DNA from: an uncultured Candidatus Peribacteria bacterium
GTDB taxonomy: Bacteria > Patescibacteriota > Gracilibacteria > UBA1369 > JACRIC01
Assembly (NCBI GenBank): GCA_964617145.1
Contig: CAZTVN010000003.1
Coordinates: forward strand, 1-41,506
DNA: 41,506 bases
Reading direction: 5' to 3'
In this document: piece by piece, positions 1-41,506 of the stretch
Layout of the letters: every line of letters starts with the position of its first letter
How positions within the stretch are numbered: the first letter of the stretch is position 1
Made by a program: the position numbers and the translations under genes
Notes under the pieces: generated by a model
Told to the model about the DNA's origin: nothing
The model's input: only the letters and a program-made list of their open reading frames with translations
Database searches by the model: none

Positions 1-52
1 GCTCGAAATGGTAAAATTTCGTTACAACGTTATGTTTTTCAGCACCTCCTTT
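1..52. repeat. Right half of a family-1 hairpin repeat (GTTTTTCAG-CACCTCCTT end), truncated by the window start
   Basis: Nt 32-51 atgtttttcagcacctcctt is the exact reverse complement of 41453-41472. Nt 4-17 cgaaatggtaaaat is the exact reverse complement of 41486-41499. It resembles the right arms at 1006-1023, 6126-6143 and 14471-14485. Confidence 0.7.
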
Positions 53-133
53 ATTCTAACAAAAATTTCAAAAACTTCTAGGAATTTACCAATTTTTTAA
101 AATTTTTTCATTTTTTTCTGCTAAAGCAAGAGC

Positions 134-868
134 GTGCATAGCATTCGATTTTCCCAACTTTTTTACCAATTACGCTCTTTTTTGTTTGCGGTTTTGTTGC
201 CACAACAATGCTTTTCCTGTCGCAAAGAAGGACAATCTTTGTGTCATGAGTGTTTGGACCGTATCCCCTTTCAGGTTGTACAAATGTGTCCTTTGTGTAA
301 AAAACCAAGGCAGGATGGTACTTGTTGTCCTTTTCCTTGTCGAGAAATGAGCTTTCTCGATGCGCTTATTAGCGCTTGTCCTTATGTAAAGGGCAATATC
401 CTTTCTCAAGCTCTTTTCCGTTTTAAATATTTCTTTTTATCCGATATTGGTCATATTCTTGCTTACCTTCTTGTTCATGCTTTTGATATTCATCTTTCTC
501 AACTTACTGAAGATTCTCCGAATTCTTGGATTATTGTTCCAGTTCCACTTTCAAAATCACGGCTAAAATGGCGTGGATTTAATCAAAGTGAGATTCTGGC
601 GCAAGCCTTTTGTAAAGCTCGTAATTTTTCTCTTGTAAAAGCTCTTTCACGTTCACATTACGCAACTTCTCAAACGTTTCTCCATCGGCAAGATCGACTG
701 AAAAACGTATCATGCCAATTTTATTGCACGGTTTCACTTCAAAATATGAATGTTTTTATTATCGATGATATCTCAACAACCGGCGCTACTCTTCAAGAAT
801 GCGCTAAGGTTCTTAAAAATGCTGGATGTCGAAAAGTCGTAGGATTGGTGCTTGGCAGAGGTGTCTAG
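134..868 (+). CDS. comF: ComF family protein (phosphoribosyltransferase-like competence protein)
   Basis: 244 aa. N-terminal paired-Cys motifs (CFSC..CHEC, CPLC) and C-terminal PRTase loop IIDDISTTGATL. GTG start as in the ORF track. The TAG stop lies inside the TAGGGCC box. Confidence 0.8.
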   Translation: MHSIRFSQLFYQLRSFLFAVLLPQQCFSCRKEGQSLCHECLDRIPFQVVQMCPLCKKPRQDGTCCPFPCREMSFLDALISACPYVKGNILSQALFRFKYFFLSDIGHILAYLLVHAFDIHLSQLTEDSPNSWIIVPVPLSKSRLKWRGFNQSEILAQAFCKARNFSLVKALSRSHYATSQTFLHRQDRLKNVSCQFYCTVSLQNMNVFIIDDISTTGATLQECAKVLKNAGCRKVVGLVLGRGV

Positions 869-886
869 GGCCTGTGCACACAAAAG
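866..886. repeat. Family-2 box TAGGGCCTGTGCACACAAA(A)G, solo copy
   Basis: 19 of 19 nt identical to 31843-31861 and to the reverse complement of 32099-32117. It overlaps the comF stop codon. Confidence 0.7.
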
Positions 887-951
887 ACACTCCTTAAAAA
901 GACTTTTTTTTTGATTTGGAGTCTTATATGTCTTACAGTAAAAATGCACTC

Positions 952-1025
952 AAGGATGTACTGAAAAATTTGCAGCCGAAATTTGTAATTTTTAGTAGGA
1001 AGATAGTTTTTCAGACCCTCCCTAA
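952..1025 (-). repeat. Short family-1 hairpin repeat (about 74 nt)
   Basis: aaggatgtaCTGAAAAAtttgcagccgaaatttgtaa...gataGTTTTTCAGaccctccct. The reverse complement aligns with 6075-6118 and 41462-41506 (shared AAAAACTATCTT.CTACT..AATT.CAAATTTCGGCT). Confidence 0.65.
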
Positions 1026-1043
1026 CTAAAGTGTAGTCTAAAA

Positions 1044-2135
1044 ATGAAAATAGCTTTTGTTCATGATTTTCTCTTAAAACTTGGAGGCGCTGAACGCGTG
1101 CTTAAGGTTCTTTGCGATATGTTTCCTGATGCGCCTATTTACACTCTTCTTTATGATAAAGAAAATGTTGGCCATATTTTCCCCGAGCACAAAATACGGA
1201 CTTCTCATATCCAGACTTTTCCCAAATTTTTTCGAAAGCGACAAAAATACCTTTTACCCTTTTTCCCTGAAGCTATAGAGCGATTTGACTTTTCTCGTTT
1301 TGATCTTGTTTTGAGCTCAAGCTCGGCATTTGCTCATGGAGCGCTTACTCCACTTGGGACGAAGCATATTTGTTATTGCCATTCCCCCATGCGGTATGCC
1401 TATGATTGGTATCACGAATACAAAAAAGAACAACGATTGGGTTTTATCCGTTCTATGTTCGCGAGCTATCTGGTCCATAAAGTGCGAATTTGGGATCAAA
1501 GCGCGAAAGATAGACCCGATCAATATATTGCCAATTCACAAACAGTACAAAAAAGATTGCAGAAATATTATGGAGTTGATGCTCCCATCATTTATCCACC
1601 GGTCGATGTTGATCGTTTTCGTGTTCGCCATAGCCATGAAAATTATTTTCTTATTGTTTCTACTCTTACTCCTTATAAAAAAATTGATCTCGCTATTCGT
1701 TTTTTCAATACTCTGAATGAACGTTTGATTATTATTGGAGATGGTCCGCAGAGATCATATCTTGAGAGTATCGCGAATGAAAATATCGAATTTACAGGTT
1801 TTAAGCCTGATGATCTGGTGAAAGAATATCTTCAAAATTGTCGGGCATTCATTTTTCCGGGAGAAGAAGATTTTGGCATAGCTCCTGTTGAGGCAATGGC
1901 TTGTGGTAAGCCGGTCATTGCTTTCTCGCGTGGAGGTGTCACAGAATCAGTTATTGAAGGAGTGAACGGAGCATTTTTTCATTCTCCCACGGTCGAGGGT
2001 ATGAAAGAGGCTTTTCTCAGATTTCTTGAGAATGAAGGTCATTATGATGCCGATCTTATCCGTAAACAGGCTGAAAAGTTTAAACTTGAACGTTTTCAGA
2101 AAGAAATTTTGCGTATCATAAAGTGTAAGGACTAG
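1044..2135 (+). CDS. Glycosyltransferase family 4 (GT-B, retaining)
   Basis: 363 aa. C-terminal E-x7-E region FPGEEDFGIAPVEAMACGKPVIA is typical of GT4/RfaG-like enzymes. Confidence 0.8.
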   Translation: MKIAFVHDFLLKLGGAERVLKVLCDMFPDAPIYTLLYDKENVGHIFPEHKIRTSHIQTFPKFFRKRQKYLLPFFPEAIERFDFSRFDLVLSSSSAFAHGALTPLGTKHICYCHSPMRYAYDWYHEYKKEQRLGFIRSMFASYLVHKVRIWDQSAKDRPDQYIANSQTVQKRLQKYYGVDAPIIYPPVDVDRFRVRHSHENYFLIVSTLTPYKKIDLAIRFFNTLNERLIIIGDGPQRSYLESIANENIEFTGFKPDDLVKEYLQNCRAFIFPGEEDFGIAPVEAMACGKPVIAFSRGGVTESVIEGVNGAFFHSPTVEGMKEAFLRFLENEGHYDADLIRKQAEKFKLERFQKEILRIIKCKD

Positions 2136-2168
2136 GAGAAAAAATTGCCTTAAGCCTCAAAATAACAT

Positions 2169-4463: not shown

Positions 4464-4473
4464 CTGATTCGCT

Positions 4474-6051: not shown

Positions 6052-6062
6052 AATTCTCTTAA

Positions 6063-6143
6063 AAAGAGGCTTAAGAAAAACTATCTTACTACTTAATAAT
6101 TGCAAATTTCGGCTAAGCAACGTAAGTTTTTCAGATCCTCCTT
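6063..6143 (+). repeat. Short family-1 repeat abutting the folC-like start codon
   Basis: aaagaggcttaaGAAAAACtatcttactacttaataattgcaaatttcggct...GTTTTTCAGatcctcctt, immediately followed by the ATG at 6144. Confidence 0.6.
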
Positions 6144-7767: not shown

Positions 7768-7846
7768 GAGGGCGTCGGCATACACATTTTTTGCGCTTCA
7801 AGGAATAAAGACGCTTAAAAAATGGTATGCCGCCGCCCTCTTTTTT
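7768..7846. terminator. Long rod hairpin, bidirectional terminator between the small ORF and ligA
   Basis: gagggcgtcggcatac (7768-7783) pairs with gtatgccgccgccctc (7825-7840) with 1 mismatch. Inner catttttt/aaaaaatg also pair. A T6 run follows at 7841-7846. Confidence 0.7.
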
Positions 7847-14320: not shown

Positions 14321-14485
14321 GGACACTCTGAAAAAAACCCTTTCGACTGCAATTGCAAGCGTTCGGCTAAAAAATGGCTCATGCCTTCTTGCCGTATCTT
14401 TCTCTGATACGCCTTCGTCGGCCTTCGCCATTTTCGCCAGAACGCTTGCAATTTCGTAACCGAAATGGCATTTTTCAGAGTGTCC
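14321..14485 (+). repeat. Long family-1 rod hairpin (165 nt) between convergent genes
   Basis: ggacactctgaaaaa (14321-14335) pairs with tttttcagagtgtcc (14471-14485), 15 bp perfect. aattgcaagcgttc (14351-14364) pairs with gaacgcttgcaatt (14440-14453), 14 bp perfect. The left arm aligns with 41462-41506 (ctgaaaaa..actgcaatt..ttcggct). Confidence 0.75.
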
Positions 14486-15632: not shown

Positions 15633-15679
15633 ATCTCAAAATTATACCTTATTTTAGACCAAAAATCAATTTAAGAATG

Positions 15680-15699
15680 GGCTGAAAAACTATTCAGCC
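15680..15699. terminator. Short hairpin downstream of mnmA carrying the CTGAAAAAC motif
   Basis: ggctgaa (15680-15686) pairs with ttcagcc (15693-15699). The sequence gggCTGAAAAACTATtcagcc resembles a family-1 arm start. Confidence 0.4.
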
Positions 15700-15794
15700 A
15701 CTACAATTTTCACATTTTGGCTTAAATTTGTTCAGGACAGATCAACGTATCTTTATCTGGGGAATAAGAGCTAGCAGCATTTTTTAGAGTTTGC

Positions 15795-19363: not shown

Positions 19364-19387
19364 TTAGGGCCTCTGCACAGGCCTTAA
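19364..19387. repeat. Family-2 box as a collapsed near-palindrome (TTAGGGCCTcTGCAcAGGCCTTAA)
   Basis: Lies between convergent rel and ychF and overlaps the ychF TAA stop (19384-19386). ggcct/aggcc form the stem. The left half matches TAGGGCCT.TGCAC of the boxes at 866 and 31843. Confidence 0.55.
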
Positions 19388-21133: not shown

Positions 21134-21185
21134 ATTTTGTGCATTATTTTTCTCTGTAACTTCACAAATTTCGAGTATATTATTG

Positions 21186-21346
21186 AGTGGGCAAGGGAAT
21201 TTTTTCTCCTCAAAGGCTCCGCATTGACCGTACCAAAGGTCTCACTCCTTCTGATTTTACGATATAATCCGCAAAATCAGATAGTCATTCGACCTGTACG
21301 GTAACCCAATGCTTTGCCATTTGTCGAAAAAATTCCCTTGCCCACT
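21186..21346 (+). repeat. Rod hairpin element sharing a conserved core with 36523-36737 (candidate structured RNA or MITE relative)
   Basis: 21-bp perfect stem: agtgggcaagggaattttttc (21186-21206) pairs with gaaaaaattcccttgcccact (21326-21346). Core blocks ctccgcattgaccgt (21217-21231) and atcagatagtcattcg (21276-21291) are shared with the 36.5-kb copy. Confidence 0.75.
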
Positions 21347-21451
21347 TATCAAGTTTGTACTCAAAAAAAATGAAACCGTACGCCCCCTTCATATTATCGT
21401 TTTTTTGCATTACAATACAGAAGAAATTTGTAACTTCTTGCGACTAATTCA

Positions 21452-24386: not shown

Positions 24387-24546
24387 TTAGATAGCGGCAG
24401 ATTGCTTTTTCCTGAACGCTTTCGTCTACTATTAAATAAAAATTTTTTTTACTTATCCGAAAGCTCGATTCTCGCGAAGCATCAACCTTTTCTCATTCTC
24501 TTGCTTCGCTCGAAACGTCAGTCAAAAGCAATCTGCCGCTATCTAA
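24387..24546 (+). repeat. Long rod hairpin element (160 nt), divergent family-1 member
   Basis: 23-bp perfect stem: ttagatagcggcagattgctttt (24387-24409) pairs with aaaagcaatctgccgctatctaa (24524-24546). Inner pairs are gcgaagca (24474-24481)/tgcttcgc (24502-24509) and ctgaacgctttcg/cgaaacgtcag. The internal ctttcgtctactattaaat resembles other family members. Confidence 0.7.
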
Positions 24547-24549
24547 ATA

Positions 24550-24577
24550 TTGACAAACCAATTCTTCTCTCTATATT
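24550..24577 (+). promoter_or_regulatory. Putative sigma70 promoter of the ABC operon (TTGACA, 16 nt, TATATT)
   Basis: ttgaca at 24550-24555 and tatatt at 24572-24577. The GTG start at 24587 is only 9 nt after the -10. Confidence 0.5.
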
Positions 24578-29976: not shown

Positions 29977-31884
29977 TTATTTTTTACTTTTTGTCAAGGC
30001 TTTGTAGTATGATGCTCTTTCTCTATAGCTTGATGCCTCTTTTGGATAGACGACGGCGAGCAATTCGTAGAGATTTGTCGCCGCCTCCCTGTTTGGTGTT
30101 TGTACGGTATAGTGAATATTGTTTTTGAGTTGAAATTCGTACTTTTCCAGAAGATCGAGCGTCATGCCTTTTATCTTGTCTATTTCATCTTCAGAGCCGA
30201 TTTTTCTCGCCATATCAATGAAATTCCAATAATACCAAAAGTGATTCATGGGATTTAAGTTTAACGCCTTCTTAAAACTCGAAAAAGCGTCCCTATATTT
30301 TCCCTGACTTCTTTGGATTTCCCCGAGTCTTTCCCAGCCTTCGGAATCGATAGGATTTAAGATTAAATGTTTTTCCAGCGCTATTTTTGCGAGATCGATA
30401 TTTCCTTCAGCCAAAAAAGTCTGAAAACGTTTCATAAAATGTTCTCGAGGGAAGAGCGTTTTTTCATAATATTCGAAATACATTTCTCCTTTTTGAAAAT
30501 CGTTCGCGCTTTCAGATTGATAGGCTTTTTTCTCAAATTGAGTGAGTTGCATCTCAAAAATGCCGTTTACGATCAAAATGCCAGCAATCAATAAGGCGAC
30601 GTAGGATCGTTTTTCCCCTTGAAGATGTTGAAAACTTATCATACTTCGCACAGAGGCGAGCAAAATAAAAAACAGAAGAATATTTACGATGAAATTCAAA
30701 TTGTAATCGATTTGATTATGGAGAATGGCTCCCAAAAGTGAGCTTGAGATAATCAGCGCTTCGTATTCATTAAAATTTTCAAGAAATCGGATTCTCTTTA
30801 TCATCGTTCTGGCCAATATGATGAAAAATCCTAACAAAAATATGGCTGCGATGAGTCCTTCTTCTGAAGCTATTTTCAGCAAGATATTGTGAGCGTGATC
30901 GGATGTTCCGAGAAATGTTGTCTGTACATGCGGATAGGCAAATCGGAAACTATAAGGACCGTAGCCGAAAAACGGCTTTTCAAGAGTGAGAGTGATCGCA
31001 CCTTTCCAAAATTCTATGCGTTCTCGTATGGATGTTATATTTTCTTGATGCTGAAAAGTAATTTTTTCTTCAAAAGTGGTTATATCGTGTGTTTGTCCTC
31101 TTATCAGGTTCGATCCTTGAATTATTAAAAATGTGAGCACGGTAATGAGTGCCACTTGTGTGAAAAATCTTTTTTTCCACCTGTAAGGGCGGATGGTGAA
31201 AAACAAAAAAAGACTTTGCAATATGAAAACCAACCATCCTCCTCTTGAATAGGTGAGATAGAGAGCGCTTATTATGAAGGCGGTAGCTAGTGGTGCGAGG
31301 GTTTTTAATTTTCCCTTCAGAAGAGCTAGTGACAAAGGCCAAACCATAATCAAAAACAGCGCTGCGCCATTTGGCCAAAGTTCCCCTGAGTTTTCTAAGT
31401 TTATAAATGTTGCGAAAAAGCGAGGAGAGGGATGAGTAAAATAAAAATAATATCCGATTCCTACGGCAATAATGGAAATGGACAGTATGCCAGGAAGCAA
31501 CCATGATCTGTAAAAAGAGGTATGAGCCAATGAAAGATAGATCGTAATAGATGAGGCGAATACCAGGATTTCAGAAAATCCGTAATTTTTTGTTTGTGAT
31601 AAAAAAAAGGCTGTTATAAGACTTAAGAGAAATCCTAAAAGGAAAATTTTTTCCTTTTTTGATTCTTCTCGTTTCATCCGAAATGCTACCAGCGCTAGAG
31701 GCAATGTACTAAACGCGAGTAAGAGTACGGGGAATAAGTCCTCGCCTTCATCATATTTTTTTGAGTGAAAAAGGAAAAGAAAGTATGCAAAAAGGGAAAT
31801 TAAAAGAATCGGTGGAATTTGTGTGAAATTTTCTCGGATAGTTAGGGCCTGTGCACACAAAGTTTTTACAGATGGAAGAGACAT
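29977..31884 (-). CDS. O-antigen ligase/polymerase (Wzy_C)-like membrane protein with C-terminal TPR repeats
   Basis: 635 aa, more than 10 TM helices. YSRGGW loop block and C-terminal TPR-like repeats (GWERLGEIQRSQGKYRDAFSSFKKALNLNP). The first 14 codons lie inside the 31843-32117 element. Confidence 0.75.
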   Translation of the reverse strand: MSLPSVKTLCAQALTIRENFTQIPPILLISLFAYFLFLFHSKKYDEGEDLFPVLLLAFSTLPLALVAFRMKREESKKEKIFLLGFLLSLITAFFLSQTKNYGFSEILVFASSITIYLSLAHTSFYRSWLLPGILSISIIAVGIGYYFYFTHPSPRFFATFINLENSGELWPNGAALFLIMVWPLSLALLKGKLKTLAPLATAFIISALYLTYSRGGWLVFILQSLFLFFTIRPYRWKKRFFTQVALITVLTFLIIQGSNLIRGQTHDITTFEEKITFQHQENITSIRERIEFWKGAITLTLEKPFFGYGPYSFRFAYPHVQTTFLGTSDHAHNILLKIASEEGLIAAIFLLGFFIILARTMIKRIRFLENFNEYEALIISSSLLGAILHNQIDYNLNFIVNILLFFILLASVRSMISFQHLQGEKRSYVALLIAGILIVNGIFEMQLTQFEKKAYQSESANDFQKGEMYFEYYEKTLFPREHFMKRFQTFLAEGNIDLAKIALEKHLILNPIDSEGWERLGEIQRSQGKYRDAFSSFKKALNLNPMNHFWYYWNFIDMARKIGSEDEIDKIKGMTLDLLEKYEFQLKNNIHYTVQTPNREAATNLYELLAVVYPKEASSYRERASYYKALTKSKK

Positions 31885-32117
31885 ATTTTGTTCAGTTCAA
31901 GAAACGACGACGAAGGTGTGCCCAAAGGCACATCGAGGAGGAGTAACGCAGAAATGGGCAAAATATGTCTCTTCCCTTCGGGTTGAACAGGAACCTGTCA
32001 GGTCTTCTTTGTTGCTCGTCGCTTGTGGAGCGCAATGGCGAAACAGCGCTCCTCGCGCCGCGAATCCGACAACGTTCCTGTTCAACCATCGCAAAAACTT
32101 TGTGTGCACAGGCCCTA
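31843..32117. repeat. 275-bp element bounded by 25-bp perfect inverted repeats (family-2 box) enclosing a GC-richer multi-hairpin core
   Basis: tagggcctgtgcacacaaagttttt (31843-31867) pairs with aaaaactttgtgtgcacaggcccta (32093-32117). Internal perfect stems: 31874-31890/31959-31975 (17 bp), 31981-31994/32074-32087 (14 bp), 32027-32033/32046-32052 (7 bp). Confidence 0.8.
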
Positions 32118-32430: not shown

Positions 32431-33012
32431 TCAATGTTTTCTCCTCTCAAATTCTCTCAATAGTTCCGAAAATCGCACGGATTTTTCATTCAAAAGCACG
32501 AACAGGTGATAGATGAGATCGACGCTTTCTTCGATGAGCCTCTTATGTGACTCGCTCTTTGCTGAGTGAATCACCTCAATACTTTCTTCTTCCACTTTGT
32601 CACATATTTTTTGTAAACCGGCATCAAAAAGTTTACTGGTATATGATTTTTTCGGCCGCTTATTCTTTCGTTCAGCTATCAGCCTATACAATTTTTCCAA
32701 AAGATGAGTCGAAAGTACTGATTTTTTCCTTCGACTGAAACATGTTTGCGTATTTCGATGACATGCCGCTCCTTTTGGCTCAACCAAAATAAGTAAAGTG
32801 TCTTGATCACAATCCAGAAATATTTTTTTTACTTTTAAAATATTGCCACTCGTCTCACCTTTCATCCACAATCTTTTCTTCGATCTCGAATAAAACCATA
32901 CTTTTTTCGATTTTTTTGTTCTTTCAAGCGCTTCTTTATCCATATATCCAAGCATCAATACTTCGAGAGTCTGAATATCTTGAATAATGGCTGGAATAAG
33001 TGTTTTTTTCAT
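32431..33012 (-). CDS. hisIE: Bifunctional phosphoribosyl-AMP cyclohydrolase / phosphoribosyl-ATP pyrophosphatase
   Basis: 193 aa. HisI block (WFYSRSKKRLWMKGETSGN, DCDQDTLL, ACH) followed by a HisE-like helical C-terminus. Confidence 0.85.
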   Translation of the reverse strand: MKKTLIPAIIQDIQTLEVLMLGYMDKEALERTKKSKKVWFYSRSKKRLWMKGETSGNILKVKKIFLDCDQDTLLILVEPKGAACHRNTQTCFSRRKKSVLSTHLLEKLYRLIAERKNKRPKKSYTSKLFDAGLQKICDKVEEESIEVIHSAKSESHKRLIEESVDLIYHLFVLLNEKSVRFSELLREFERRKH

Positions 33013-33015
33013 ATT

Positions 33016-34488
33016 TTACATTCTTATTGAAATACCATTCTTTCTTAAAAATTTCTTTACCTTGGCTATCGTGACCTCTTGAAAATGCAACATGCTCGCC
33101 AAAAGTACGCTGTCTGCTTTCCCCTTTTCAAATGCTTCCAGAAGATGCTGCAATGTTCCAGCTCCTCCTGAGGCGATCACTGGAATGTTTACCGATGTAC
33201 TTACTTTTTCTATTAATTTTAGATCATACCCTTGCTTTATACCATCTCTGTCCATAGAAGTTAAAAGGATCTCTCCTGCTCCTAATTTCTCCACTTTTTT
33301 TGCCCAATCTATCGCGTCAAGCTCGGTCTCCTCACTTCCACCTTTTATAAACACTTTATAATTTTTTCCAACTTTTTTCGCATCGATAGCCACCACTATG
33401 CACTGCGATCCAAAATTTTTGGCTCCTTCCTTAATGAGCTTTGGATTTAATATCGCAGCGGTATTTATCGTTATCTTATCAGCTCCACATTTCAGTATTC
33501 GTCTCATTTCTTCTACGCTTTTTATACCTCCTCCCACCGTAAAAGGAATCGATACTTTCTTTGCTACTTTTTCGACCATACGATAGATGGTGTCACGATT
33601 TTCCTTACTCGCGGTTATGTCGAGAAAAACAAGTTCGTCTGCACCCTTTTTTGAATATTTTTCACCCAACTTGCCAGGATCACCGGCGTCTTTTAAGTTG
33701 AGGAAACGCTTCCCTTTCACTACTCTGCCATCTTTTACGTCGAGACAAGGTATAATTCGTTTTGTTAGGGCGCTATTTTTGAGCGCTTCGCACAGGAGAA
33801 TTTTCCCTTCATAAAGAGCTTTTCCAATAATTGCTCCTTCAATGTTTAATTTTTTTAATATTTGCAAGCTTCTCAAGTTCGATATTCCTCCTGATGCGAT
33901 CACTTTTAATCCGAGATTTTTTAACTGCGAAATCATCTCAAAGTTTGGTGATGTTAATGTCCCATCTCTTGAGATGTCTGTGGCGATAATTTCACTGATT
34001 CCTATTTTTTTCAGATTTTTAGCGAATTTTCTATATTCGAGAGCGGTATTTTTTTGCCAACCATTCGTTACCACATTGCCATTTTCGATATCGATGGCGA
34101 CTATAATCGATTTTGCTCCGTAAAAATTTACTAAGTTTTGTAGAAATTTCTGATCAGACGCCGCGACAGTCCCTATCACGATTCGCTCAATGCCGGAATC
34201 GAGATAGAAACGCGCATCTTTCTCCTGCCGTATTCCTCCACCAACTTGCAGAGGAATTTTCACTTTTTTCCTCATTTTCGCTATCAAATTTTGATTTACA
34301 GGATATCCAGCCTTAGCACCATCAAGATCAATAACATGCAACATCGGAGCTCCTTGCTTTGCAAATTTTTCAGCCACAAAAATCGGATTTTCGTTGTATA
34401 CTTTTTTTTCTTCAAAATCACCTCGTAACAGGCGCACGCATTTGCCGCCCATGATGTCAATTGCAGGAATTATCAACATAAAGTACAA
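33016..34488 (-). CDS. hisAF: HisA-HisF fusion protein (ProFAR isomerase fused to the imidazole glycerol phosphate synthase cyclase subunit)
   Basis: 490 aa. The N-terminal half has [15 protein letters not shown] and [11 protein letters not shown] (HisA). The C-terminal half has [16 protein letters not shown] and [10 protein letters not shown] (HisF). The true start is probably the ATG at 34479 (MLIIPAIDI). Confidence 0.85.
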
Positions 34489-35114
34489 AAATTACGTAAT
34501 ATTTTCATACCTTGCTCGCCTGATTTTTCGGGATGAAATTGTGTGCCGAAAAAATTTTTATACTGAAGCACTACGGGGAATCTGATCTCATAATCTGCTT
34601 CGGCAATAATATTTTGCTGTAGCGCATCGAAATAATATGAATGCACAAAATAAAAATATGCATCGTCTTTGATGCCTTTTGTGAGCTTGGAGGTTTTTTT
34701 TAATGATACTCGATTCCAGCCCATGTGCGGAATTTTTAATCCTTTTTGCTGCGGCAATTTTCTCACTCGACCTTTCATAATTTTGAGACATTCCACATTA
34801 CCTTCATAAGAAAATTCGGCCAAAATCTGCATTCCAAGACAAATACCAAGAAACGGGACATTGAGTTTTTGAATGAAATTTTTGATTTTTTGTAGGTGTT
34901 CCATCGCTTGAGAAGCCGCACCAACACCTGGGAGGATATATCCGTCGTATTTGGGAAGAGTCTGAAAAACGTGCTTACTCCTGCAATTTTCTGACAAAAC
35001 CATATTTTCCCGAGGCTCTTTATCAAACTTTTCGAATGACACTCCAATTTTGGAAAGAGCATTTTCAATACTTTTTATATTTCCCGCACCGTAGTCAATT
35101 ATAGCGATTTTCAT
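34473..35114 (-). CDS. hisH: Imidazole glycerol phosphate synthase glutaminase subunit
   Basis: 213 aa. [10 protein letters not shown], nucleophile block FLGICLGMQ, and FVHSYY. Confidence 0.85.
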
Positions 35115-35150
35115 AGTTTTCTTTTTAAGATTTACGAATTTTAAGAATCT

Positions 35151-36020
35151 CTATATAACAATCTGTTCGATTGGCGTGACTAAAATATCTCTTCCACCGG
35201 CTCTTTTCAGCTTTTCGATAAACTCCCAAAGTATTTTTTCTGGAATTACCGAGTGGATAGCCACCATTTCCGTATTTGCCAAAGGCATAACTGTTGGTGA
35301 ACTCATGCTCGGCATAATGCTTTGTATCTTTTTGAGCGCTTTCCGAGGGGCATTCAACATCACATATTTCGTTGAGTCAGCTCTTATACTCGCTTGAAGC
35401 CGCATGAGAAAATTTTCGATATTTTTTCTTTTTGCCTTCTCCAATTTTGGACTTTGAATCAAAAGAGCCTCTGATTCAAAAATTGTTGCTATTTCTTTTA
35501 AACCATTTGTACGCAGTGTTGTCCCCGTTGATACAAGATCGCAAACGGCATCGGCAATTCCCAGCATCGGAGCGATTTCCACCGATCCTTTGATACCAAT
35601 AACATTTCCTTTGATATTTTCCTTTTTTAAAAAATCATTCAGCGAACGAACATAAGATGTTGCAATTTTCTTGCCACTTAAATCCTTTATTTTTTTTATG
35701 GGACTTTTTTCCGAAACGGCTAGAGAAAGTCGACATTTTCCAAAACCCAGGCGTTCAAGAATCGTAACCTGAACGCCCTTTTCCTTCAGCATATTCTCAC
35801 CCACAATCCCAAGATCACAAACCTGATCTTGCACATATTCAGGGATATCATCGTCACGAAGCCATAAAATTTCAAGATCAAAATTTTTTGATCGCGTAAA
35901 AAGACGATCTTTGTACATTTCAAATTCTATGCCCATGTTTTTTAAAAGTTGCAGGGTTGCTTCGGTCAGTCGACCAGTTTTTTGAATGGCAAGTTTTATA
36001 TTTTTTCCACTTCGTTTCAT
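35151..36020 (-). CDS. hisG: ATP phosphoribosyltransferase (long form)
   Basis: 289 aa. LAIQKTGRL start, DLVSTGTTLR block, and a C-terminal regulatory domain of the right length. Confidence 0.85.
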   Translation of the reverse strand: MKRSGKNIKLAIQKTGRLTEATLQLLKNMGIEFEMYKDRLFTRSKNFDLEILWLRDDDIPEYVQDQVCDLGIVGENMLKEKGVQVTILERLGFGKCRLSLAVSEKSPIKKIKDLSGKKIATSYVRSLNDFLKKENIKGNVIGIKGSVEIAPMLGIADAVCDLVSTGTTLRTNGLKEIATIFESEALLIQSPKLEKAKRKNIENFLMRLQASIRADSTKYVMLNAPRKALKKIQSIMPSMSSPTVMPLANTEMVAIHSVIPEKILWEFIEKLKRAGGRDILVTPIEQIVI

Positions 36021-36113
36021 GGTTTTCTTTGTGTTAAGAGAGGAAGACTTTGTAAGGGATGTGCTGTAAAAATATGCTTACTACTGGTAATTTTCACTAA
36101 GCTCCTAAGATAT

Positions 36114-36143: not shown

Positions 36144-36167
36144 AAGTGGATTTAAGTTTCGATACAT

Positions 36168-36467: not shown

Positions 36468-36522
36468 GTATTAAAACGCTATCATGTTATCATGTAATAA
36501 TTTCATGTCAAGTTAAAAATTG

Positions 36523-36737
36523 GTAACTGCTCACAATGGTAAAAAGTGGGCGGGGCGTTTCCCTTTCGTCCTGCCTCCGCATTGACCGTCCATCCGCTCA
36601 TTTCTTCTGATAACGCGATTGGCAGACGCGTTATCAGATAGTCACTCGCGGGGACGGTTCCCAATTGCTCGGCAATGTCCTTAAGGGAAACGCCCCGCCC
36701 ACTTTTTTACCCCCGTTGATTCCTTGTGAGCAGTTAC
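36523..36737 (+). mobile_element. MITE-like 215-bp hairpin element with 14-bp TIRs and an 8-bp target-site-duplication-like direct repeat
   Basis: TIRs: gtaactgctcacaa (36523-36536) and ttgtgagcagttac (36724-36737). The direct repeat aaaaattg flanks it on both sides (36515-36522 and 36738-36745). Inner 23-bp perfect stem: 36541-36563 pairs with 36685-36707. The core is shared with 21186-21346. Confidence 0.7.
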
Positions 36738-36753
36738 AAAAATTGCATAAAAA

Positions 36754-37527
36754 TCATTCGACAGTTATTTTTTTAAAAAACTCTATCAATCCATATAAAA
36801 GTGGAATGTGGAGCAAGTATATGACAAGAGCGTATTTTGAGAAAAACTGAAATATTTTCGGAGTAATGCGTGATATTTTCTCTGAATTTTTCCATCTTCT
36901 TTTTCCTCCAGGATATAAAAAGTGTCCAAGCAATATTCCCAGTGTTGGAAGAGTTATCCAAGGGAAAATAGGGAAATAATCAATGGTTTGAAAATTTTGC
37001 ACTTTAAATCCAAAAATGAGTAAAAGAGGGAACGATGTTTCTACTTCCTGAAATATTTTTCCGAGTCCGAAACCGATCAAGGCTATTATTTTGAGTGTTT
37101 TCTTTTTCTCTACGAAGAAACTTAAAAAATAACTTGATACGGCTATAAAATGCAGGACTCCAAATCGAACATAGAGATCTCCTATAAATATTCGCGTTGC
37201 TAAAGTCACGAAAATAGCACTGAGCAATATGATTTTTGATCGGTTCCATTGTCTAAAATAAAAAGCGTTTTTCGATATGCCCTTTGCGCGAATTTTATTA
37301 TATGAAATTGCCATGCATACTCCCACCAAAATCAGAAAAGAAAACTGTACAAATCTTGCGAGTAACAGAAAGCCACCTTCGTACATTTCGTAATTTCGTA
37401 TTTCAAGAAAATCCAGCAGAAAGAAAAAATGAAAAATAATCATGCCTATTACGGCCAATGTTCTCAATATGTCGATTTCTTCAAAGCGCTCGTCTGTTTG
37501 GTTTATTTTCTTGTGATTTTTTTTCAC
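36754..37527 (-). CDS. DUF1624 / heparan-alpha-glucosaminide N-acetyltransferase-like membrane acyltransferase
   Basis: 257 aa, multi-pass membrane protein. The N-terminal EIDILRTLAVIGMIIFHF resembles the DUF1624 signature. Confidence 0.55.
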   Translation of the reverse strand: MKKNHKKINQTDERFEEIDILRTLAVIGMIIFHFFFLLDFLEIRNYEMYEGGFLLLARFVQFSFLILVGVCMAISYNKIRAKGISKNAFYFRQWNRSKIILLSAIFVTLATRIFIGDLYVRFGVLHFIAVSSYFLSFFVEKKKTLKIIALIGFGLGKIFQEVETSFPLLLIFGFKVQNFQTIDYFPIFPWITLPTLGILLGHFLYPGGKRRWKNSEKISRITPKIFQFFSKYALVIYLLHIPLLYGLIEFFKKITVE

Positions 37528-37568
37528 CTTTATTATAATAGACTCACTTTTATTTATTTTCTCTCATC

Positions 37569-38369
37569 ATGGCTGCAAAATCAAATAAAGCTCTTATCTC
37601 AGGTATTGTTGGAAGTGCCGTTTTAATTTCTGCTTCACTTGTTTTCGTTGGAGTTGTTATGCTCAACGGGGTAAAAGTGAAAAGTTTTGAGAATGGTTTG
37701 TTTGCTCAAGAACTCAAAGCAGCGATTGAAACTCTCAATAATGAAGATCCTCAAGCAAAGACTCAAAATGATCAAGATCAAGTCGTGAGGACAATTCCTT
37801 CAGACAGTGTCATGCCAGTTTCTGCGAAAGATGATCATATTTTGGGTGAATCCGATTCTCCTATTTCAGTTATTGAATATTCTGATTTTGAATGTCCTTG
37901 GTGTAAAAAATTTCATCAAGATGGCACTCCGAAGAAAATAGTTGACGCATACAAAGGCAAAGTAAATTTTGTTTATCGACATTTTGTAGCTGTAACTGGT
38001 CATAATCCATTAGCAACTCAAGAAGCACAAGCCAGTGAATGTGCTTCAGCACTTGGAGGAAATGATGCTTTCTGGAAATACCATGATGCACTTTTTGCTC
38101 GTACCACTTCAAATGGCAATGGCTTAAAATTAGAAGATTTAAGCACGATTGCCACTGAGACAGGTCTGAATACATCATCTTTTGATACATGTTTTCAAAG
38201 TGAAAAATATGCTTCAATCGTTGAAGAGGATATGAAAAGCGGAGCGAAAGTAGGAGTAGGGGGAACTCCTGGAACCGTTGTTATCAACAATGAAACTGGT
38301 GAGGCTTATCTTGTAAAAGGTGCTCAACCTTTTGAAACTTTCAAAGATGTTGTAGAACAATTGCTTTAA
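37569..38369 (+). CDS. DsbA-like thioredoxin-fold thiol:disulfide oxidoreductase, membrane anchored
   Basis: 266 aa. N-terminal TM segment and active site SDFECPWCKKFH. Confidence 0.8.
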   Translation: MAAKSNKALISGIVGSAVLISASLVFVGVVMLNGVKVKSFENGLFAQELKAAIETLNNEDPQAKTQNDQDQVVRTIPSDSVMPVSAKDDHILGESDSPISVIEYSDFECPWCKKFHQDGTPKKIVDAYKGKVNFVYRHFVAVTGHNPLATQEAQASECASALGGNDAFWKYHDALFARTTSNGNGLKLEDLSTIATETGLNTSSFDTCFQSEKYASIVEEDMKSGAKVGVGGTPGTVVINNETGEAYLVKGAQPFETFKDVVEQLL

Positions 38370-38382
38370 GCATATTAAGTCT

Positions 38383-38925: not shown

Positions 38926-38950
38926 AAATATACGAGTTATACAATTCTTG

Positions 38951-39155
38951 AGTACGTAAAATTACGGTACAGGTGTCGAAGTATTCTTAGAAAAACACGA
39001 GAATAGTTTGGCTCAAAACCCGATTCGTCGCTTAAAAAATGCAAAACCGGAATTTTGCATTTTTTAAGGAGTGACTCATCGCATTTTGACAGCCAAACAA
39101 TCTCTATAGTTTTTCTTAAGAATCTTCCACACCTGTGCCGTAAAAACCCTGTACT
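38951..39155 (+). repeat. Long rod hairpin element (205 nt), divergent family-1 member
   Basis: The 35-nt arms 38962-38996 and 39109-39143 pair with 2 mismatches and 2 single-nt indels, and end in GAAAAAC / GTTTTTC. The central 16-bp perfect hairpin is 39031-39046/39053-39068. gtttggct/agccaaac also pair. Confidence 0.7.
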
Positions 39156-39214
39156 TACCATCGTGAAACTCTAAAATTGGCTTTTTAAAAGGTTTTTTTC
39201 GTGTTACAATTGCA

Positions 39215-39574: not shown

Positions 39575-39676
39575 TTGTTTCGTAAGCTTTCGATTTTTCA
39601 CTGTACCTATCGCTTAAGCGAAAATTTCAGTGAATTTTAATCGTTGATTTTTAGTGTATTTTTTCATTTTATGTTT

Positions 39677-40186: not shown

Positions 40187-40189
40187 TTT

Positions 40190-40657
40190 ATGATTTCTTT
40201 TGTTCGAAAATATTTTGGATGGTTGGTCAGTCTTTTGCTTATTTTTCTTGCTAGTATCTCAATTTTTGTTCGTTTCGAAATGAGTATTCAAACTCAACAC
40301 ACCGAACTGAATACAAGCTCTATTTCTTTGATAGATTCTACTTCATTTGATTTTGGTGTTATTCCTCGTGATCGCAAAGTCGAACATATTTTTTCTCTTC
40401 AGAATCCGGATTCTACTCCGTTAGAAATTAAAAAAATTGTTACTTCTTGTGGTTGCACTACGGCAGAACCTTTTATTGATGAGAAAAAACAAACTATGCC
40501 TTTTACGCTTGCTTCTGGTTCTACTTCTCAAATTCGCGTTATTTTTGACCCTCTAGCCCATGATTCACGCGGCGATACTTATAGAGCTGTACGCATAGAA
40601 ACCAACCATCCTCAAAATCCTTTTATAGTTATCAATCTTCACGCTTATGTCCAATGA
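40190..40657 (+). CDS. DUF1573 domain protein, membrane anchored
   Basis: 155 aa. TM anchor. FSLQNPDSTPLEIKKIVTSCGCTT is the canonical DUF1573 CGC block. Confidence 0.7.
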   Translation: MISFVRKYFGWLVSLLLIFLASISIFVRFEMSIQTQHTELNTSSISLIDSTSFDFGVIPRDRKVEHIFSLQNPDSTPLEIKKIVTSCGCTTAEPFIDEKKQTMPFTLASGSTSQIRVIFDPLAHDSRGDTYRAVRIETNHPQNPFIVINLHAYVQ

Positions 40658-41291
40658 AATTACTTTTTCTGTCGTTACGATAAATGGCCTTATCGACTCT
40701 ATTAATCCTTGCGCTATTGGAGTTTTGATAGCAACGGTTGCGATCCTTTTTGCACTAGGAAATTATCGGCAACAGATTCTCCGATTTGGGTTCTTTTATA
40801 TTCTCTCTACTTATGTTACTTACCTTTTGATAGGACTTGGCATTTTAAAGGCAATACATCTTTTTGGCGTCCATAATTTCTTTGGCTGGCTTTCTGCTGT
40901 CGTCCTTATTCTTATGGGTTTGTGGCAACTTTTTCGTTCTGCCTGCATCGTACCAAAGCATATGCCGAAAGAGGCTACTATTCTGTCCGGCGTTTTTTTG
41001 GGATTTCTTGTAGGACTCTGTGAATTTCCTTGCTCTGGAGGTATCTATCTTGCGACTGTTGGCTTTATTGGCCTTCGCGAAACCTTTTTCTCAGGGCTTC
41101 TTTTGCTCATGTGGTACAACTTCATGTTCGTCTTGCCGATCCTTGCTCTTTTTCTTATTGCCTACAATCTTTCCGCAGCTAAAATGATCTCCGAATTAGT
41201 CGGAAAATTTGGTGCTCGTGCTCGATACTTTAGCGCTGCTGCTATGATCATCATAGGGATTCTTCTCTTGAGTTGGCTTATTTTTCGTTAG
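40647..41291 (+). CDS. CcdA/DsbD-family transmembrane thiol-disulfide electron transporter
   Basis: 214 aa, about 6 TM helices. Membrane-embedded Cys motifs SINPCAIG and EFPCSGG. Overlaps the upstream gene by 11 nt. Confidence 0.65.
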   Translation: MSNEITFSVVTINGLIDSINPCAIGVLIATVAILFALGNYRQQILRFGFFYILSTYVTYLLIGLGILKAIHLFGVHNFFGWLSAVVLILMGLWQLFRSACIVPKHMPKEATILSGVFLGFLVGLCEFPCSGGIYLATVGFIGLRETFFSGLLLLMWYNFMFVLPILALFLIAYNLSAAKMISELVGKFGARARYFSAAAMIIIGILLLSWLIFR

Positions 41292-41337
41292 AATTTCAGT
41301 AGAAAGTTGGTTTTCCAAAGGATCTTAGACTATTGTT

Positions 41338-41371
41338 AAGAGGCCTCGCGAATAAATTCGCGAGGCCTCTT
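41338..41371 (+). terminator. Perfect 15-bp stem hairpin downstream of the CcdA-like gene
   Basis: aagaggcctcgcgaa, loop taaa, ttcgcgaggcctctt. There is no clean T-tract afterwards. Confidence 0.55.
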
Positions 41372-41440
41372 ATACTAAATCCTTACTGCCGGAGACTTGC
41401 TCTTACTTATATCTCCACCTGCTCAATACGAATTTTGAGT

Positions 41441-41506
41441 TGAGGAGGGTCTAAGGAGGTGCTGAAAAACATACCATCTACTGCAATTTTACCATTTCGG
41501 CTGCAA
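41441..41506. repeat. Left half of a family-1 hairpin repeat (AAGGAGGTG-CTGAAAAAC end), truncated by the window end
   Basis: gaggagggtctAAGGAGGTGCTGAAAAACataccatctactgcaattttaccatttcggctgcaa. It aligns with 14328-14372 and with the reverse complements of 952-1025 and 1-52. Confidence 0.7.

What the first reader, a model, noticed from the sequence alone, without database searches (positions are those of the whole stretch)
1..41506. Intergenic spacers are saturated with long near-perfect hairpin repeats (at least 11 in 41.5 kb)
Almost every spacer longer than about 80 bp holds a rod-like inverted repeat with perfect stems of 14-25 bp. The elements are at 1-52, 952-1025, 6063-6143, 7768-7840, 14321-14485, 21186-21346, 24387-24546, 31843-32117, 36523-36737, 38951-39155 and 41441-41506. 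Many share sequence modules: CTGAAAAAC/GTTTTTCAG arm ends, ACTGCAATT, TTCGGCT, CTTTCGTC and GCTCAT.YCTTCT. They occur in convergent, divergent and tandem gene contexts, so they are not simply terminators. This density of related palindromic elements is unusual for a small, streamlined genome. I cannot match them to REP/BIME, ERIC, Correia, attC or any Rfam family from memory.
Basis: seen in the sequence. Interest (0 to 1): 0.75.

Follow-up and report, generated by a model that had tools for sequence, protein, structure and literature searches.

The report
Hairpin mini-transposons fill intergenic spacers
The long hairpins between genes on this contig from an uncultured Peregrinibacteria (CPR) bacterium are real, and they are several families of small non-coding transposons (MITEs) that take up nearly half of the non-coding DNA, which is a known kind of element that I found no paper describing in this lineage.

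Summary
The window has 11 perfect inverted repeats of at least 14 nt within 320 nt, against 0.10 in shuffles. Thirteen of 15 spacers of 80 bp or more carry an element.

- **Family A** (14321-14485, plus short and truncated copies at 1-52, 952-1025, 6063-6143, 15672-15760 and 41441-41506) recurs at least 43 times in five Peregrinibacteria/Peribacteria MAGs and one Moraniibacteriota-labelled MAG. Copies within one genome are 93-99% identical. They have 16-nt terminal inverted repeats. Twenty-five of 37 two-ended copies have perfect 4-bp AT-rich target-site duplications. A syntenic relative shows filled versus empty sites.
- **Family C** (31843-32117) is TA-flanked and 84% identical to a copy elsewhere in a relative.
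- **Family B** (21186, 36523) has an 8-bp duplication at one copy.
- **Elements D and E** look alike in shape but are orphans.
- **The hairpins at 7768 and 41337** may be plain terminators.

Stems covary strongly but almost only through Watson-Crick changes. Both strands fold equally well, and orientation relative to genes is unbiased. This points to DNA-level palindromes, not RNA genes. There was no Rfam, plasmid or phage match, and no transposase was found. These are new members of a known kind.

The parts
14321..14485 (+). Family A, full-length copy (165 bp). Terminal inverted repeats are GGACACTCTGAAAAAA / TTTTTCAGAGTGTCC. Flanks are GTTG / TTTG (3 of 4 bases match).
   Evidence: nhmmer with the family A profile gave E=5.8e-37. 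It aligns with 16 copies from other MAGs. Fold energy is -78.7 kcal/mol. Logan contigs from two runs both stop at 14366, inside the copy.
1..52 (+). Family A, 3' arm, cut by the contig end (…GTTTTTCAGCACCTCC).
   Evidence: nhmmer matched model positions 115-157. It is 85% identical in reverse complement to 41453-41499.
41441..41506 (+). Family A, 5' arm, cut by the contig end (GGAGGTGCTGAAAAACATACCATCTACTGCAATTTTACCATTTCGGCTGCAA).
   Evidence: nhmmer gave E=4.4e-9. It is 95.6% identical to the JACPHH01 consensus over 45 nt.
952..1025 (-). Family A, short internally deleted form (74 bp): the 5' arm up to GGCTGCAAA joined to the 3' terminus.
   Evidence: nhmmer gave E=4.9e-7. It has blastn hits to many A copies. 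It is 90% identical over 40 nt to 6075-6114.
6063..6143 (+). Family A, short form (81 bp), with a diverged left terminus GGCTTAAGAAAAAC.
   Evidence: Self-blast links it to 952-1025. The sequence was read. Logan contigs L001 and L002 cross it at 100% identity.
15672..15760 (+). Family A, 5' half only (truncated copy).
   Evidence: nhmmer gave E=4.5e-10 over model positions 8-85. The repeat finder family D6 also picks it up.
36055..36105 (+). Possible family A2-like 5' fragment (CTGTAAAAATATGCTTACTACTGGTAATTTTCAC).
   Evidence: Compared by eye with the A2 subfamily CTGATAAATATGCTTACTACTGCAAATT. It fell below the nhmmer threshold, so it is tentative.
31843..32117 (.). Family C (275 bp). It has 25-bp perfect terminal inverted repeats TAGGGCCTGTGCACACAAAGTTTTT and two internal hairpins, and it is flanked by or includes TA at both ends.
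   Evidence: It is 83.65% identical over 263 bp to L051 6556-6813 (JACPHH01), which lies in a different gene context, and stem changes are compensated. Partial copies occur in L021 and L045. Logan contigs stop exactly 29 nt inside each end.
865..884 (+). Solo family C terminus (TAGGGCCTGTGCACACAAA), overlapping the stop codon of ORF 134-868.
   Evidence: A 19-20 nt exact match to both C termini; the sequence was read.
36523..36737 (+). Family B, copy 2 (215 bp). The outer terminal repeats are GTAACTGCTCACAA / TTGTGAGCAGTTAC and the inner stem is 25 bp and perfect. It is flanked by a perfect 8-bp direct repeat AAAAATTG (36515-36522 and 36738-36745).
   Evidence: Logan contig L100 stops 27 nt inside the right end.
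21156..21362 (+). Family B, copy 1. The core hairpin is 21186-21346 with a 21-bp perfect stem. The outer left terminus GTAACTTCACAA is at 21156-21167, and the right outer terminus has decayed.
   Evidence: Column identity with copy 2 is 79% (mean column identity from the alignment tool). The loops CCGCATTGACCGT, CTTCTGAT and ATCAGATAGTCA are conserved, and the stems are fully compensated.
24387..24546 (.). Element D (160 bp rod). Terminal repeats are TTAGATAGCGGCAGATTGCTTTT / AAAAGCAATCTGCCGCTATCTAA. No other copy was found.
   Evidence: no hits in the held loci. Logan contigs cross it. A promoter-like TTGACA-16-TATATT lies just downstream at 24550-24577.
38951..39155 (.). Element E (205 bp). 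An outer hairpin (38951-38982 / 39124-39155) encloses an inner element, 38983-39123, whose termini ATTCTTAGAAAAAC / GTTTTTCTTAAGAAT resemble those of family A.
   Evidence: Logan contig L101 stops 29 nt inside the inner element. No similar sequence occurs in the held loci.
7768..7840 (+). A 73-nt GC-rich hairpin followed by TTTTTT, between convergent genes. It is probably an intrinsic terminator and has not been shown to be repeated.
   Evidence: Fold energy is -39.0 kcal/mol. The context was read. It has no hits elsewhere.
41337..41372 (+). A 17-bp perfect hairpin after gene 40647-41291. It is terminator-like and has not been shown to be repeated.

Best explanation
The hairpins are non-autonomous DNA transposons (MITEs) of several unrelated families. 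They have colonised the AT-rich spacers of a Candidatus Peregrinibacteria (CPR) genome.

**How they work.** Each element is a near-palindrome of 75-275 bp with no coding capacity, bounded by terminal inverted repeats. A transposase encoded elsewhere in the genome, or now lost, recognises the two ends, cuts the element out or copies it, and inserts it at a staggered cut. Repair of that cut duplicates the target. The duplication is 4 bp for family A (AT-rich, mostly TTTA/TAAA, TTAG/CTAA, CTTA/TAAG), apparently TA for family C, and 8 bp for family B.

**Why spacers.** I infer that insertions persist only where they do no harm: between genes, and upstream of promoters rather than within them. This would explain why almost every long spacer holds one.

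**Why rods.** The whole element, not just its ends, is kept self-complementary at the DNA level. Arm changes are compensated almost exclusively by Watson-Crick changes, and both strands fold equally well.

**Shown:** terminal repeats, target duplications, copy number, near-identity within a genome, filled versus empty sites, nesting, and truncated and deleted derivatives.

**Inferred:** which transposase acts (IS5-like or IS701-like for A, IS630-like for C), whether the elements are still active, and why the full-length pairing and some internal loops are conserved.
For: **Copy number and lineage.** The A-motif scan of GTDB species genomes found 53 loci. About 43 matches lie in five Peregrinibacteria/Peribacteria MAGs and one Moraniibacteriota-labelled MAG, 29 of them in JACPHH01 alone. 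Full-length copies within JACPHH01 are 93-99% identical to their consensus.

**Target duplications.** Of 37 copies with both ends, 25 have a perfect 4-bp direct repeat at the flanks and 33 match at 3 or more of 4 bases.

**Filled versus empty sites.** L096 (JACPHH010000002) and L097 are syntenic with window 19-31 kb.
- The sigma-factor gene and the next gene abut in the window and overlap in L097. In L096 they are separated by a 172-bp spacer that is an A2 copy.
- ychF and aroD overlap in the window. In L096 they are separated by a 313-bp spacer full of nested hairpins.
- The aroD/sigma spacer holds B in the window, another family in L096, and nothing in L097.

**Nesting and decay.** Family C sits inside an A2 copy in L051. 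There are truncated 5' halves, 75-bp deletion forms and 216-bp insertion forms. L027 5915-6060 has A-type termini but an unrelated interior.

**Families C and B.** C is 84% identical to a JACPHH01 copy in a different gene context and is TA-flanked. B copy 2 is flanked by a perfect 8-bp repeat, AAAAATTG.

**Repeats within this genome.** Logan contigs of the same genome stop 27-29 nt inside C (both ends), B2 and inner E, and 46 nt inside A. The 27-29 nt stops are what a k=31 assembly does on entering a repeat. The contig itself ends inside A copies at both ends.

**DNA-level symmetry.**
- 96.5% of 912 alignment cells pair. 139 cells changed on both sides, against 44.5 in shuffles, and only 3 cells changed on one side (wobble).
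- G-U pairs are 0-6% of stem pairs, and both strands fold with similar energy.
- Orientation relative to neighbouring genes is unbiased: 6 co-directional, 5 anti-directional, 6 convergent and 4 divergent.

**No database match.** No Rfam family matches. The window's A copy has no plasmid match and C has no phage match. The defining features agree with the MITE description in PMC3184786.
Against: - No transposase with matching ends was found. There is none in the window, none between solo termini in the held loci, and no IS5-like protein in the DNA held and indexed at that point, which included about 330 kb from the A-bearing clade.
- D and E have no second copy in any sequence I could reach. 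B has only its two window copies. Their MITE status rests on shape, termini, the single 8-bp duplication (B) and contig break points (B2, inner E).
- A TA 'duplication' cannot be told apart from an extended palindrome.
- Full-length compensated pairing, and loops conserved across genomes (ACTGCAAT, GGCTGCAAA, CGTATC..GATACG, CTTCGTCG, TTTTCGCTC, TTTCGTAAC), are more than a cut-and-paste transposase should need.
- The SLH-to-ABC spacer holds a hairpin in all three syntenic genomes, although the three sequences are unrelated.
Confidence: 0.85

Rival explanations
1. The elements are structured non-coding RNAs or cis-regulatory RNA elements. They would be transcribed from one strand and selected for RNA secondary structure.
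For: Family A covaries strongly: 26 of 54 pairs carry double changes, and 0 of 500 shuffles reach the observed value. Internal loops are conserved across genomes. The stems of B copies 1 and 2 are fully compensated. Folding energies are very low.
Against: - The 4-bp and 8-bp target duplications and the filled versus empty sites show insertion, not inheritance in place.
- Orientation shows no bias.
- Only 3 of 912 cells are wobble intermediates, G-U pairs are 0-6% of stem pairs, and both strands fold equally well.
- No Rfam match appears even at E up to 1.
- Copies within a genome are near-identical, and many are truncated or nested.
Confidence: 0.05
2. The elements are REP/REPIN-type palindromes spread by a RAYT (IS200/IS605-like tyrosine transposase) acting on single-stranded hairpin DNA.
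For: They are high-copy intergenic palindromes. Pairing runs the whole length with conserved mismatched loops, and the symmetry is at the DNA level.
Against: - To my knowledge, RAYT- and IS200/IS605-type transposition leaves no target-site duplication and needs no terminal inverted repeats. Family A has both and B has an 8-bp duplication.
- The elements are two to four times longer than REP doublets.
- No such gene appeared among the ORFs I checked. The genomes were not searched exhaustively.
Confidence: 0.03
3. The hairpins are intrinsic transcription terminators or mRNA-stabilising 3' hairpins that evolved in place.
For: 7768-7840 (GC-rich stem plus TTTTTT, between convergent genes) and 41337-41372 fit this reading. 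Many elements lie just after a gene end.
Against: - Elements also sit between divergent genes (21186) and inside operons in relatives (L096 5332-5503).
- They are 160-275 nt long, most lack a T-run, and they are multi-copy with target duplications.
- This reading does hold for a minority: 7768 and 41337.
Confidence: 0.05
4. The palindromes are assembly artefacts, such as chimeric fold-back joins.
For: The contig ends lie in repeats, and palindromes can be created by mis-assembly.
Against: Thirteen independent Logan contigs from five runs match the window at 100% identity, and several cross the hairpins. The same families occur in independently assembled NCBI MAGs.
Confidence: 0.01

Closest known systems
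Bacterial MITEs in general (for example Neisseria Correia elements, Bacillus cereus bcr1, pneumococcal RUP, enterobacterial ERIC), as reviewed by Delihas 2011 (PMC3184786)
   Same: - Size is 75-275 bp with no coding capacity.
- They have terminal inverted repeats and flanking direct repeats.
- There are many intergenic copies.
- They fold into long stable stem-loops.
- bcr1 likewise shows compensatory changes and short flanking repeats.
- Family C's TA flanks resemble those of Correia and RUP (from my own knowledge).
   Different: - There is no sequence similarity to anything searched.
- The host is a CPR bacterium, for which my literature searches found no MITE description.
- Several unrelated families coexist and fill about 45% of the non-coding DNA.
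- Family A keeps specific internal loops across genomes and subfamilies.
IS5-family insertion sequences (IS5 of E. coli) as a possible source of family A
   Same: - To my knowledge, IS5-group elements make a 4-bp target duplication at YTAR-like sites.
- The ends begin with GGA. The IS5 ends read from MG1655 are GGAAGGTGCGAAYAAG, against GGAGGTGCTGAAAAAC in the window's A copies.
   Different: - The end similarity is short and needs gaps. The JACPHH01 ends (GGAACCTCTGAAAAAC) are less similar.
- Only about a quarter of the A duplications fit YTAR.
- No IS5-like transposase was found in the held DNA.
- IS701 and other 4-bp families are equally possible.
REP/REPIN elements with RAYT transposases
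   Same: They are abundant intergenic palindromes whose pairing is maintained over evolution.
   Different: Family A has terminal inverted repeats and 4-bp target duplications. The elements are longer than REP doublets, and no RAYT was seen.
Rickettsia palindromic elements (RPE) in reduced genomes
   Same: They are palindromic repeats of 100-150 bp that have proliferated in a small genome.
   Different: To my knowledge, RPEs often insert in frame inside genes. Here the copies are intergenic, apart from the overlap of C with the start of ORF 29977-31884. There is no sequence relationship.

Membership tests
MITE (miniature inverted-repeat transposable element) | Small size (under ~400 bp) and no transposase or other real coding capacity | tested here: met
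   The elements are 74-275 bp. Only short stop-free stretches cross them, and the translations of B, D and E have no relatives among 5.8 billion proteins.
MITE (miniature inverted-repeat transposable element) | Terminal inverted repeats | tested here: met
   A has 16-nt ends that are conserved across copies. C has 25-nt perfect ends. B has 14-nt outer ends. D has 29-nt ends at 93% complementarity.
MITE (miniature inverted-repeat transposable element) | Target-site duplication of fixed length flanking each copy | tested here: met
   Family A: 25 of 37 copies have a perfect 4-bp duplication and 33 of 37 match at 3 or more of 4 bases. B copy 2 has a perfect 8-bp duplication. C has TA at both ends in both full copies, which is ambiguous because TA is palindromic. 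D and E are inconclusive.
MITE (miniature inverted-repeat transposable element) | Many dispersed copies, with near-identity within a genome | tested here: met
   A has at least 29 pattern matches in one MAG, at 93-99% identity to the consensus. C has at least 3 copies in JACPHH01 loci plus the window copy. B has 2 copies. D and E have none beyond the window.
MITE (miniature inverted-repeat transposable element) | Presence/absence differences at orthologous sites | tested here: met
   The sigma|next-gene junction and the ychF|aroD junction are empty in the window and filled in L096. The aroD/sigma spacer is filled in the window and L096 and empty in L097. The genomes compared are distant (~48-56% protein identity).
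MITE (miniature inverted-repeat transposable element) | An autonomous insertion sequence with the same ends that supplies the transposase | tested here: inconclusive
   None was found in the window or in the held relatives' DNA. Whole genomes could not be scanned.
IS5-family-derived MITE | IS5-type ends, a 4-bp duplication at YTAR, and a DDE_Tnp_1 transposase in the genome | tested here: inconclusive
   The 4-bp duplication is met. The ends resemble IS5 only partly. Few target sites fit YTAR. No IS5-like protein was found.
REP/REPIN-RAYT | No target duplication, no terminal inverted repeats, and an associated RAYT gene | tested here: not met
   Family A has both duplications and terminal repeats. 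No RAYT was seen in the window.
Rfam structured RNA families | A covariance-model match at or near the gathering score | tested here: not met
   Only tRNA-Phe passes. At E up to 1 nothing overlaps the MITE-like elements; the sub-threshold His_leader hit overlaps only the terminator-like hairpin at 41337-41372.
Integron attC sites | An array of same-orientation hairpins between promoterless cassettes, next to an integrase | tested here: not met
   Neighbouring genes are housekeeping genes. Orientation is mixed. There is no integrase in the window. Target duplications are present.
Intrinsic terminator | A short GC-rich hairpin followed by a T-run at a gene's 3' end | tested here: inconclusive
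   7768-7840 has a GC-rich stem, a T-run and a 3'-end position; 41337-41372 sits at a gene's 3' end but has no T-run. The large elements do not fit, because of their length, divergent contexts and repetition.

The most novel reading that the evidence does not exclude
The rod shape itself may be the selected feature, and the elements may carry a shared functional module.

- Families with different ends and different target duplications (A, C, the L097/L022/L036 family, and the L027 chimera) all have an apical unit of the form CTCCTC/YTCGTCG - 6-bp hairpin - CCTTCGTCG.
- Family A keeps two copies of a mismatched CTGCAAA/TTTTCG site across all subfamilies.
- Stems are compensated along their full length.

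This could mean a lineage-specific protein binds hairpin or cruciform DNA (or RNA) at these sites. Candidates include a single-strand-hairpin transposition step unlike classical cut-and-paste, or host use of the elements as insulators or terminators in Peregrinibacteria.
Probability: 0.12. Interest if true: 0.65.

Novelty: new member of a known kind. Interest (0 to 1): 0.35.

Why it matters
- **Genome biology.** CPR bacteria are usually described as streamlined, with few mobile elements. Here several MITE families occupy nearly half of the non-coding DNA of a Peregrinibacteria contig. They recur in several related MAGs, so small genome size has not excluded selfish DNA.
- **Assembly.** The repeats explain why assemblies of these organisms fragment. 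This contig and the Logan contigs end inside elements.
- **Annotation.** The elements can create false ORFs or altered gene starts. The only ATG of ORF 29977-31884 lies inside element C.
- **Use as markers.** The families could serve as lineage markers and as probes for the missing transposases.

Tried and rejected
**Searches that found nothing**
- Rfam at gathering and at E up to 1: only the tRNA.
- Metagenome scan for the family B modules: 0 hits.
- Two viral-contig scans for A motifs: 0 hits.
- The window's A copy (14321-14485) against plasmids, and C against phages: no match.
- A chimeric query made of all stop-free translations of B, D and E, searched against 5.8 billion proteins to find miscalled ORFs on other copies: no hit.
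- nhmmer profiles of A, B and C against 38 more distant GldG-neighbourhood metagenome loci (mostly Peregrinibacteria-like): no A, B or C there. Those loci have their own unrelated hairpins at lower density.
- Literature searches for repeats or MITEs in Peregrinibacteria, CPR or Patescibacteria: nothing relevant. The Peribacteria genome paper mentions only one direct repeat and origin repeats.

**The transposase search**
- ORFs between solo termini are ordinary genes.
- No multi-copy protein occurs among the held loci.
- E. coli InsH1 used as a probe found nothing.

**Other tests**
- The simple terminator scan is uninformative for long hairpins.
- Circularity of the contig (its two ends are the two arms of the same A subfamily) was considered and rejected. 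The gene content is chromosomal housekeeping, and 41.5 kb cannot be the whole genome.

Full report
**What the window is**

The window has about 38% G+C and carries housekeeping genes: dnaX, folC, ligA, mnmA, relA/spoT, ychF, aroD, a his operon, a sortase, an ABC/GldG transporter and tRNA-Phe. It contains no transposase, integrase or phage gene.

The protein database records 41,506 bp as the longest contig carrying the window's GldG protein, so the window is a whole contig. The best GldG relative, at 48% identity, is from a Candidatus Peregrinibacteria MAG (JACPHH01). Gene order around it is shared with the window. The organism is therefore a Peregrinibacteria (CPR) bacterium without close sequenced relatives.

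**Check of the observation**

Every listed hairpin is present. Perfect inverted repeats of at least 14 nt within 320 nt number 11, against a mean of 0.10 and a maximum of 1 in 100 dinucleotide shuffles.

Thirteen of 15 spacers of 80 bp or more hold an element. Together the elements make up 4.1% of the contig and roughly 45% of its non-coding DNA.

Thirteen Logan contigs from five sequencing runs are 100% identical to the window, and several cross the hairpins. The hairpins are therefore not assembly artefacts.

**Family A**

The modules CTGAAAAAC, ACTGCAATT and TTCGGCT belong to a single family. I scanned one genome per GTDB species for CTGAAAAAC-N9-ACTNCAATTTT. The scan returned 53 loci:

| Source | Matches |
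|---|---|
| JACPHH01 | 29 |
| JACPLZ01 | 6 |
| JACRIC01 | 5 |
| Two Peribacteria MAGs | 2 |
| A Moraniibacteriota-labelled MAG | 1 |
| Other genomes, mostly in coding DNA (chance-like) | about a dozen |

- **Shape and identity.** The full-length unit is about 165 bp and folds as a rod. In JACPHH01 the copies are 93-99% identical to their consensus.
- **Ends and duplications.** The ends are GGAACCTCTGAAAAAC and its complement. Of 37 two-ended copies, 25 have a perfect 4-bp flanking direct repeat and 33 match at 3 or more of 4 bases. The duplicated sites are AT-rich (TTTA/TAAA, TTAG/CTAA, CTTA/TAAG, ATAA/TTAT).
- **Derivatives.** There are 75-bp internally deleted forms, 5' halves, 216-bp forms with an extra insert, and one element with A-type ends but an unrelated interior.
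- **Copies in the window:**

| Coordinates | Form |
|---|---|
| 14321-14485 | full length |
| 952-1025 | short |
| 6063-6143 | short |
| 15672-15760 | 5' half |
| 1-52 | arm at left contig end |
| 41441-41506 | arm at right contig end |

**Insertion rather than inheritance in place**

L096 (JACPHH010000002) and L097 (a Logan contig from another relative) are syntenic with window 19-31 kb.

| Site | Window | L096 | L097 |
|---|---|---|---|
| sigma factor / next gene | genes abut | 172-bp spacer that is an A2 copy | genes overlap |
| ychF / aroD | genes overlap | 313-bp spacer of nested hairpins | not covered |
| aroD / sigma spacer | family B | another family | no hairpin |
| SLH-to-ABC spacer | element D | unrelated hairpin | unrelated hairpin |

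The L097 hairpin in the SLH-to-ABC spacer belongs to a dispersed family that also occurs in JACPLZ01.

**DNA-level or RNA-level constraint**

An alignment of 17 diverse A copies gives 54 pairs, of which 26 carry compensatory double changes. In all, 96.5% of 912 cells pair. Cells changed on both sides number 139, against 44.5 in shuffles (0 of 500 shuffles reach this) and 10-15 when the partner columns are slid.

Only 3 cells are wobble intermediates. In the window's elements G-U pairs are 0-6% of stem pairs, and both strands fold with similar energy.

I took the better-scoring strand of each of 21 full-length copies that have ORFs on both sides. Six are co-directional and five anti-directional in tandem contexts, six lie between convergent genes and four between divergent genes.

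This pattern fits palindromic DNA, not a one-strand RNA gene. No Rfam family matches, even at E up to 1.

**Family C (31843-32117, 275 bp)**

C has 25-bp perfect ends. It is 83.65% identical over 263 bp to a JACPHH01 copy that lies in a different gene context, nested in an A2 copy, and its stem changes are compensated. Both full copies are bounded by TA.

Logan contigs stop exactly 29 nt inside each end. To my knowledge Logan assemblies use k=31. A contig would then run k-2 bases into a repeat and stop, so C is probably multi-copy in this genome. A solo C end lies at 865-884.

**Family B**

The two copies (21186-21346 and 36523-37737 region; copy 2 is 36523-36737) share 79% column identity. 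The loops are conserved and the stems are fully compensated. Copy 2 has 14-nt outer ends, GTAACTGCTCACAA, and a perfect 8-bp flanking repeat, AAAAATTG. Copy 1 keeps the left outer end only. A Logan contig stops 27 nt inside copy 2. I found no further copy anywhere.

**Elements D and E**

D (24387-24546) is an orphan, and Logan contigs cross it. E (38951-39155) is an outer hairpin around an inner element, 38983-39123, whose ends resemble those of family A. A Logan contig stops 29 nt inside the inner element. Both have MITE anatomy, but repetition is not shown for D and is only indirect for E.

**Likely terminators**

7768-7840 is a GC-rich hairpin with a T-run after convergent genes. 41337-41372 is a perfect 17-bp hairpin after a gene. 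Nothing shows that either is repeated.

**Mechanism**

The evidence fits non-autonomous DNA transposons moved in trans by DDE-type transposases that make staggered cuts of 4 bp (A), 2 bp at TA (C, tentative) and 8 bp (B).

The window's A ends (GGAGGTGCTGAAAAAC) loosely resemble the IS5 ends read from E. coli MG1655 (GGAAGGTGCGAAYAAG), and IS5-group elements make 4-bp duplications. However, I found no IS5-like protein or any other transposase in the held DNA. The partner remains unknown.

Promoter-like sites lie just outside D and B2. This is consistent with insertions surviving only where they spare promoters.

**Comparison with known elements**

The features match the review definition of bacterial MITEs: terminal repeats, flanking direct repeats, no transposase, long stable stem-loops, and compensatory changes as in bcr1 (PMC3184786). 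REP/REPIN, attC and Rfam RNA memberships fail on tested features.

My literature searches found no description of such elements in Peregrinibacteria or other CPR bacteria. The families are new members of a known kind.

**What remains unexplained**

- Pairing is compensated along the full length, which is more than the ends would need.
- Several internal loops are conserved across genomes.
- A short motif is shared across unrelated families. YTCGTCG occurs 8 times in the window, and 4 of those lie in the 4.1% of the window occupied by elements. Part of this may reflect the higher G+C content of the elements.
- Several families share an apical arrangement, CTCCTC - hairpin - CCTTCGTCG.

These leave a small chance that the hairpin shape or a shared module has a function of its own.

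Noticed in passing
window 1-52 and 41441-41506: The window is a whole contig. Its two ends are the 3' arm and the 5' arm of the same A subfamily, in the same orientation and perfectly complementary to each other. The assembler evidently broke in a high-copy repeat at both ends. Circularity is unlikely, given the chromosomal gene content.
   Followed up: partly
window 31843-31884 (start of ORF 29977-31884, minus strand): The only ATG of the Wzy_C/TPR gene lies inside element C, so its first 14 codons are element sequence. Either the real start is a non-ATG codon further in, or the insertion supplied a new start.
   Followed up: partly
window 14414, 31908, 32015, 39024; L097 4608-4774; L027 5915-6060: YTCGTCG and an apical unit, CTCCTC/YTCGTCG - 6-bp hairpin - CCTTCGTCG, recur in families with different ends (A, C, E, the L097 family and the L027 chimera). 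Four of the 8 window occurrences lie in the 4.1% of sequence occupied by elements (binomial p ≈ 2e-4). Part of this may be a composition effect.
   Followed up: partly
Logan contigs L056, L105, L100, L101, L102, L103 mapped to the window: Contigs from independent runs stop 27-29 nt inside elements: C at 31871 and 32089, B2 at 36711, and inner E at 39011. They also stop at 14366 inside A. This gives an independent estimate of the repeat boundaries.
   Followed up: yes
window 19368-19383: The palindrome GGCCTCTGCACAGGCC, preceded by TTA, sits between the convergent relA and ychF genes. It resembles the family C end (TAGGGCCTGTGCAC). It may be a remnant or a terminator.
   Followed up: no
L027 5915-6060: This is a 146-bp rod with family A ends (GGAACCTCTGAAAATCG…) but an interior like the L022/L036/L097 family. 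It suggests that modules are exchanged between families.
   Followed up: partly
L023 (WJJL01000018, MAG labelled Candidatus Moraniibacteriota): An A-type element ending in TTTTTCAGAGGTTCC occurs in a MAG assigned to a different CPR phylum. This could be mis-binning or horizontal spread.
   Followed up: no
L024 4682-6325, L045 6046-7776, L055 7214-7999 (JACPHH01): Three paralogous proteins with Cys-rich zinc-ribbon-like termini lie next to A copies: two of 547-577 aa, and a third cut off by the end of locus L055. They are 39-47% identical. The only Pfam hit is a sub-threshold treble-clef zinc-finger match in one of them. Nothing marks them as transposases.
   Followed up: partly
window 41248-41375: A weak His_leader match (36.5 bits against a gathering score of 49, E=0.022) overlaps the 41337-41372 hairpin. 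It is not next to the his genes (32431-36020, minus strand) and is probably chance.
   Followed up: no
L096 1257-1569, 4492-4788, 8114-8300; L028 ~2190: JACPHH01 has a further repeat family (GGATCATACGCTTTTTCCTTTGAAAAAAAGTACATATCGCTGGGAGGCGGGGGCTCGTCGC…) in at least four places. It is absent from the window.
   Followed up: no
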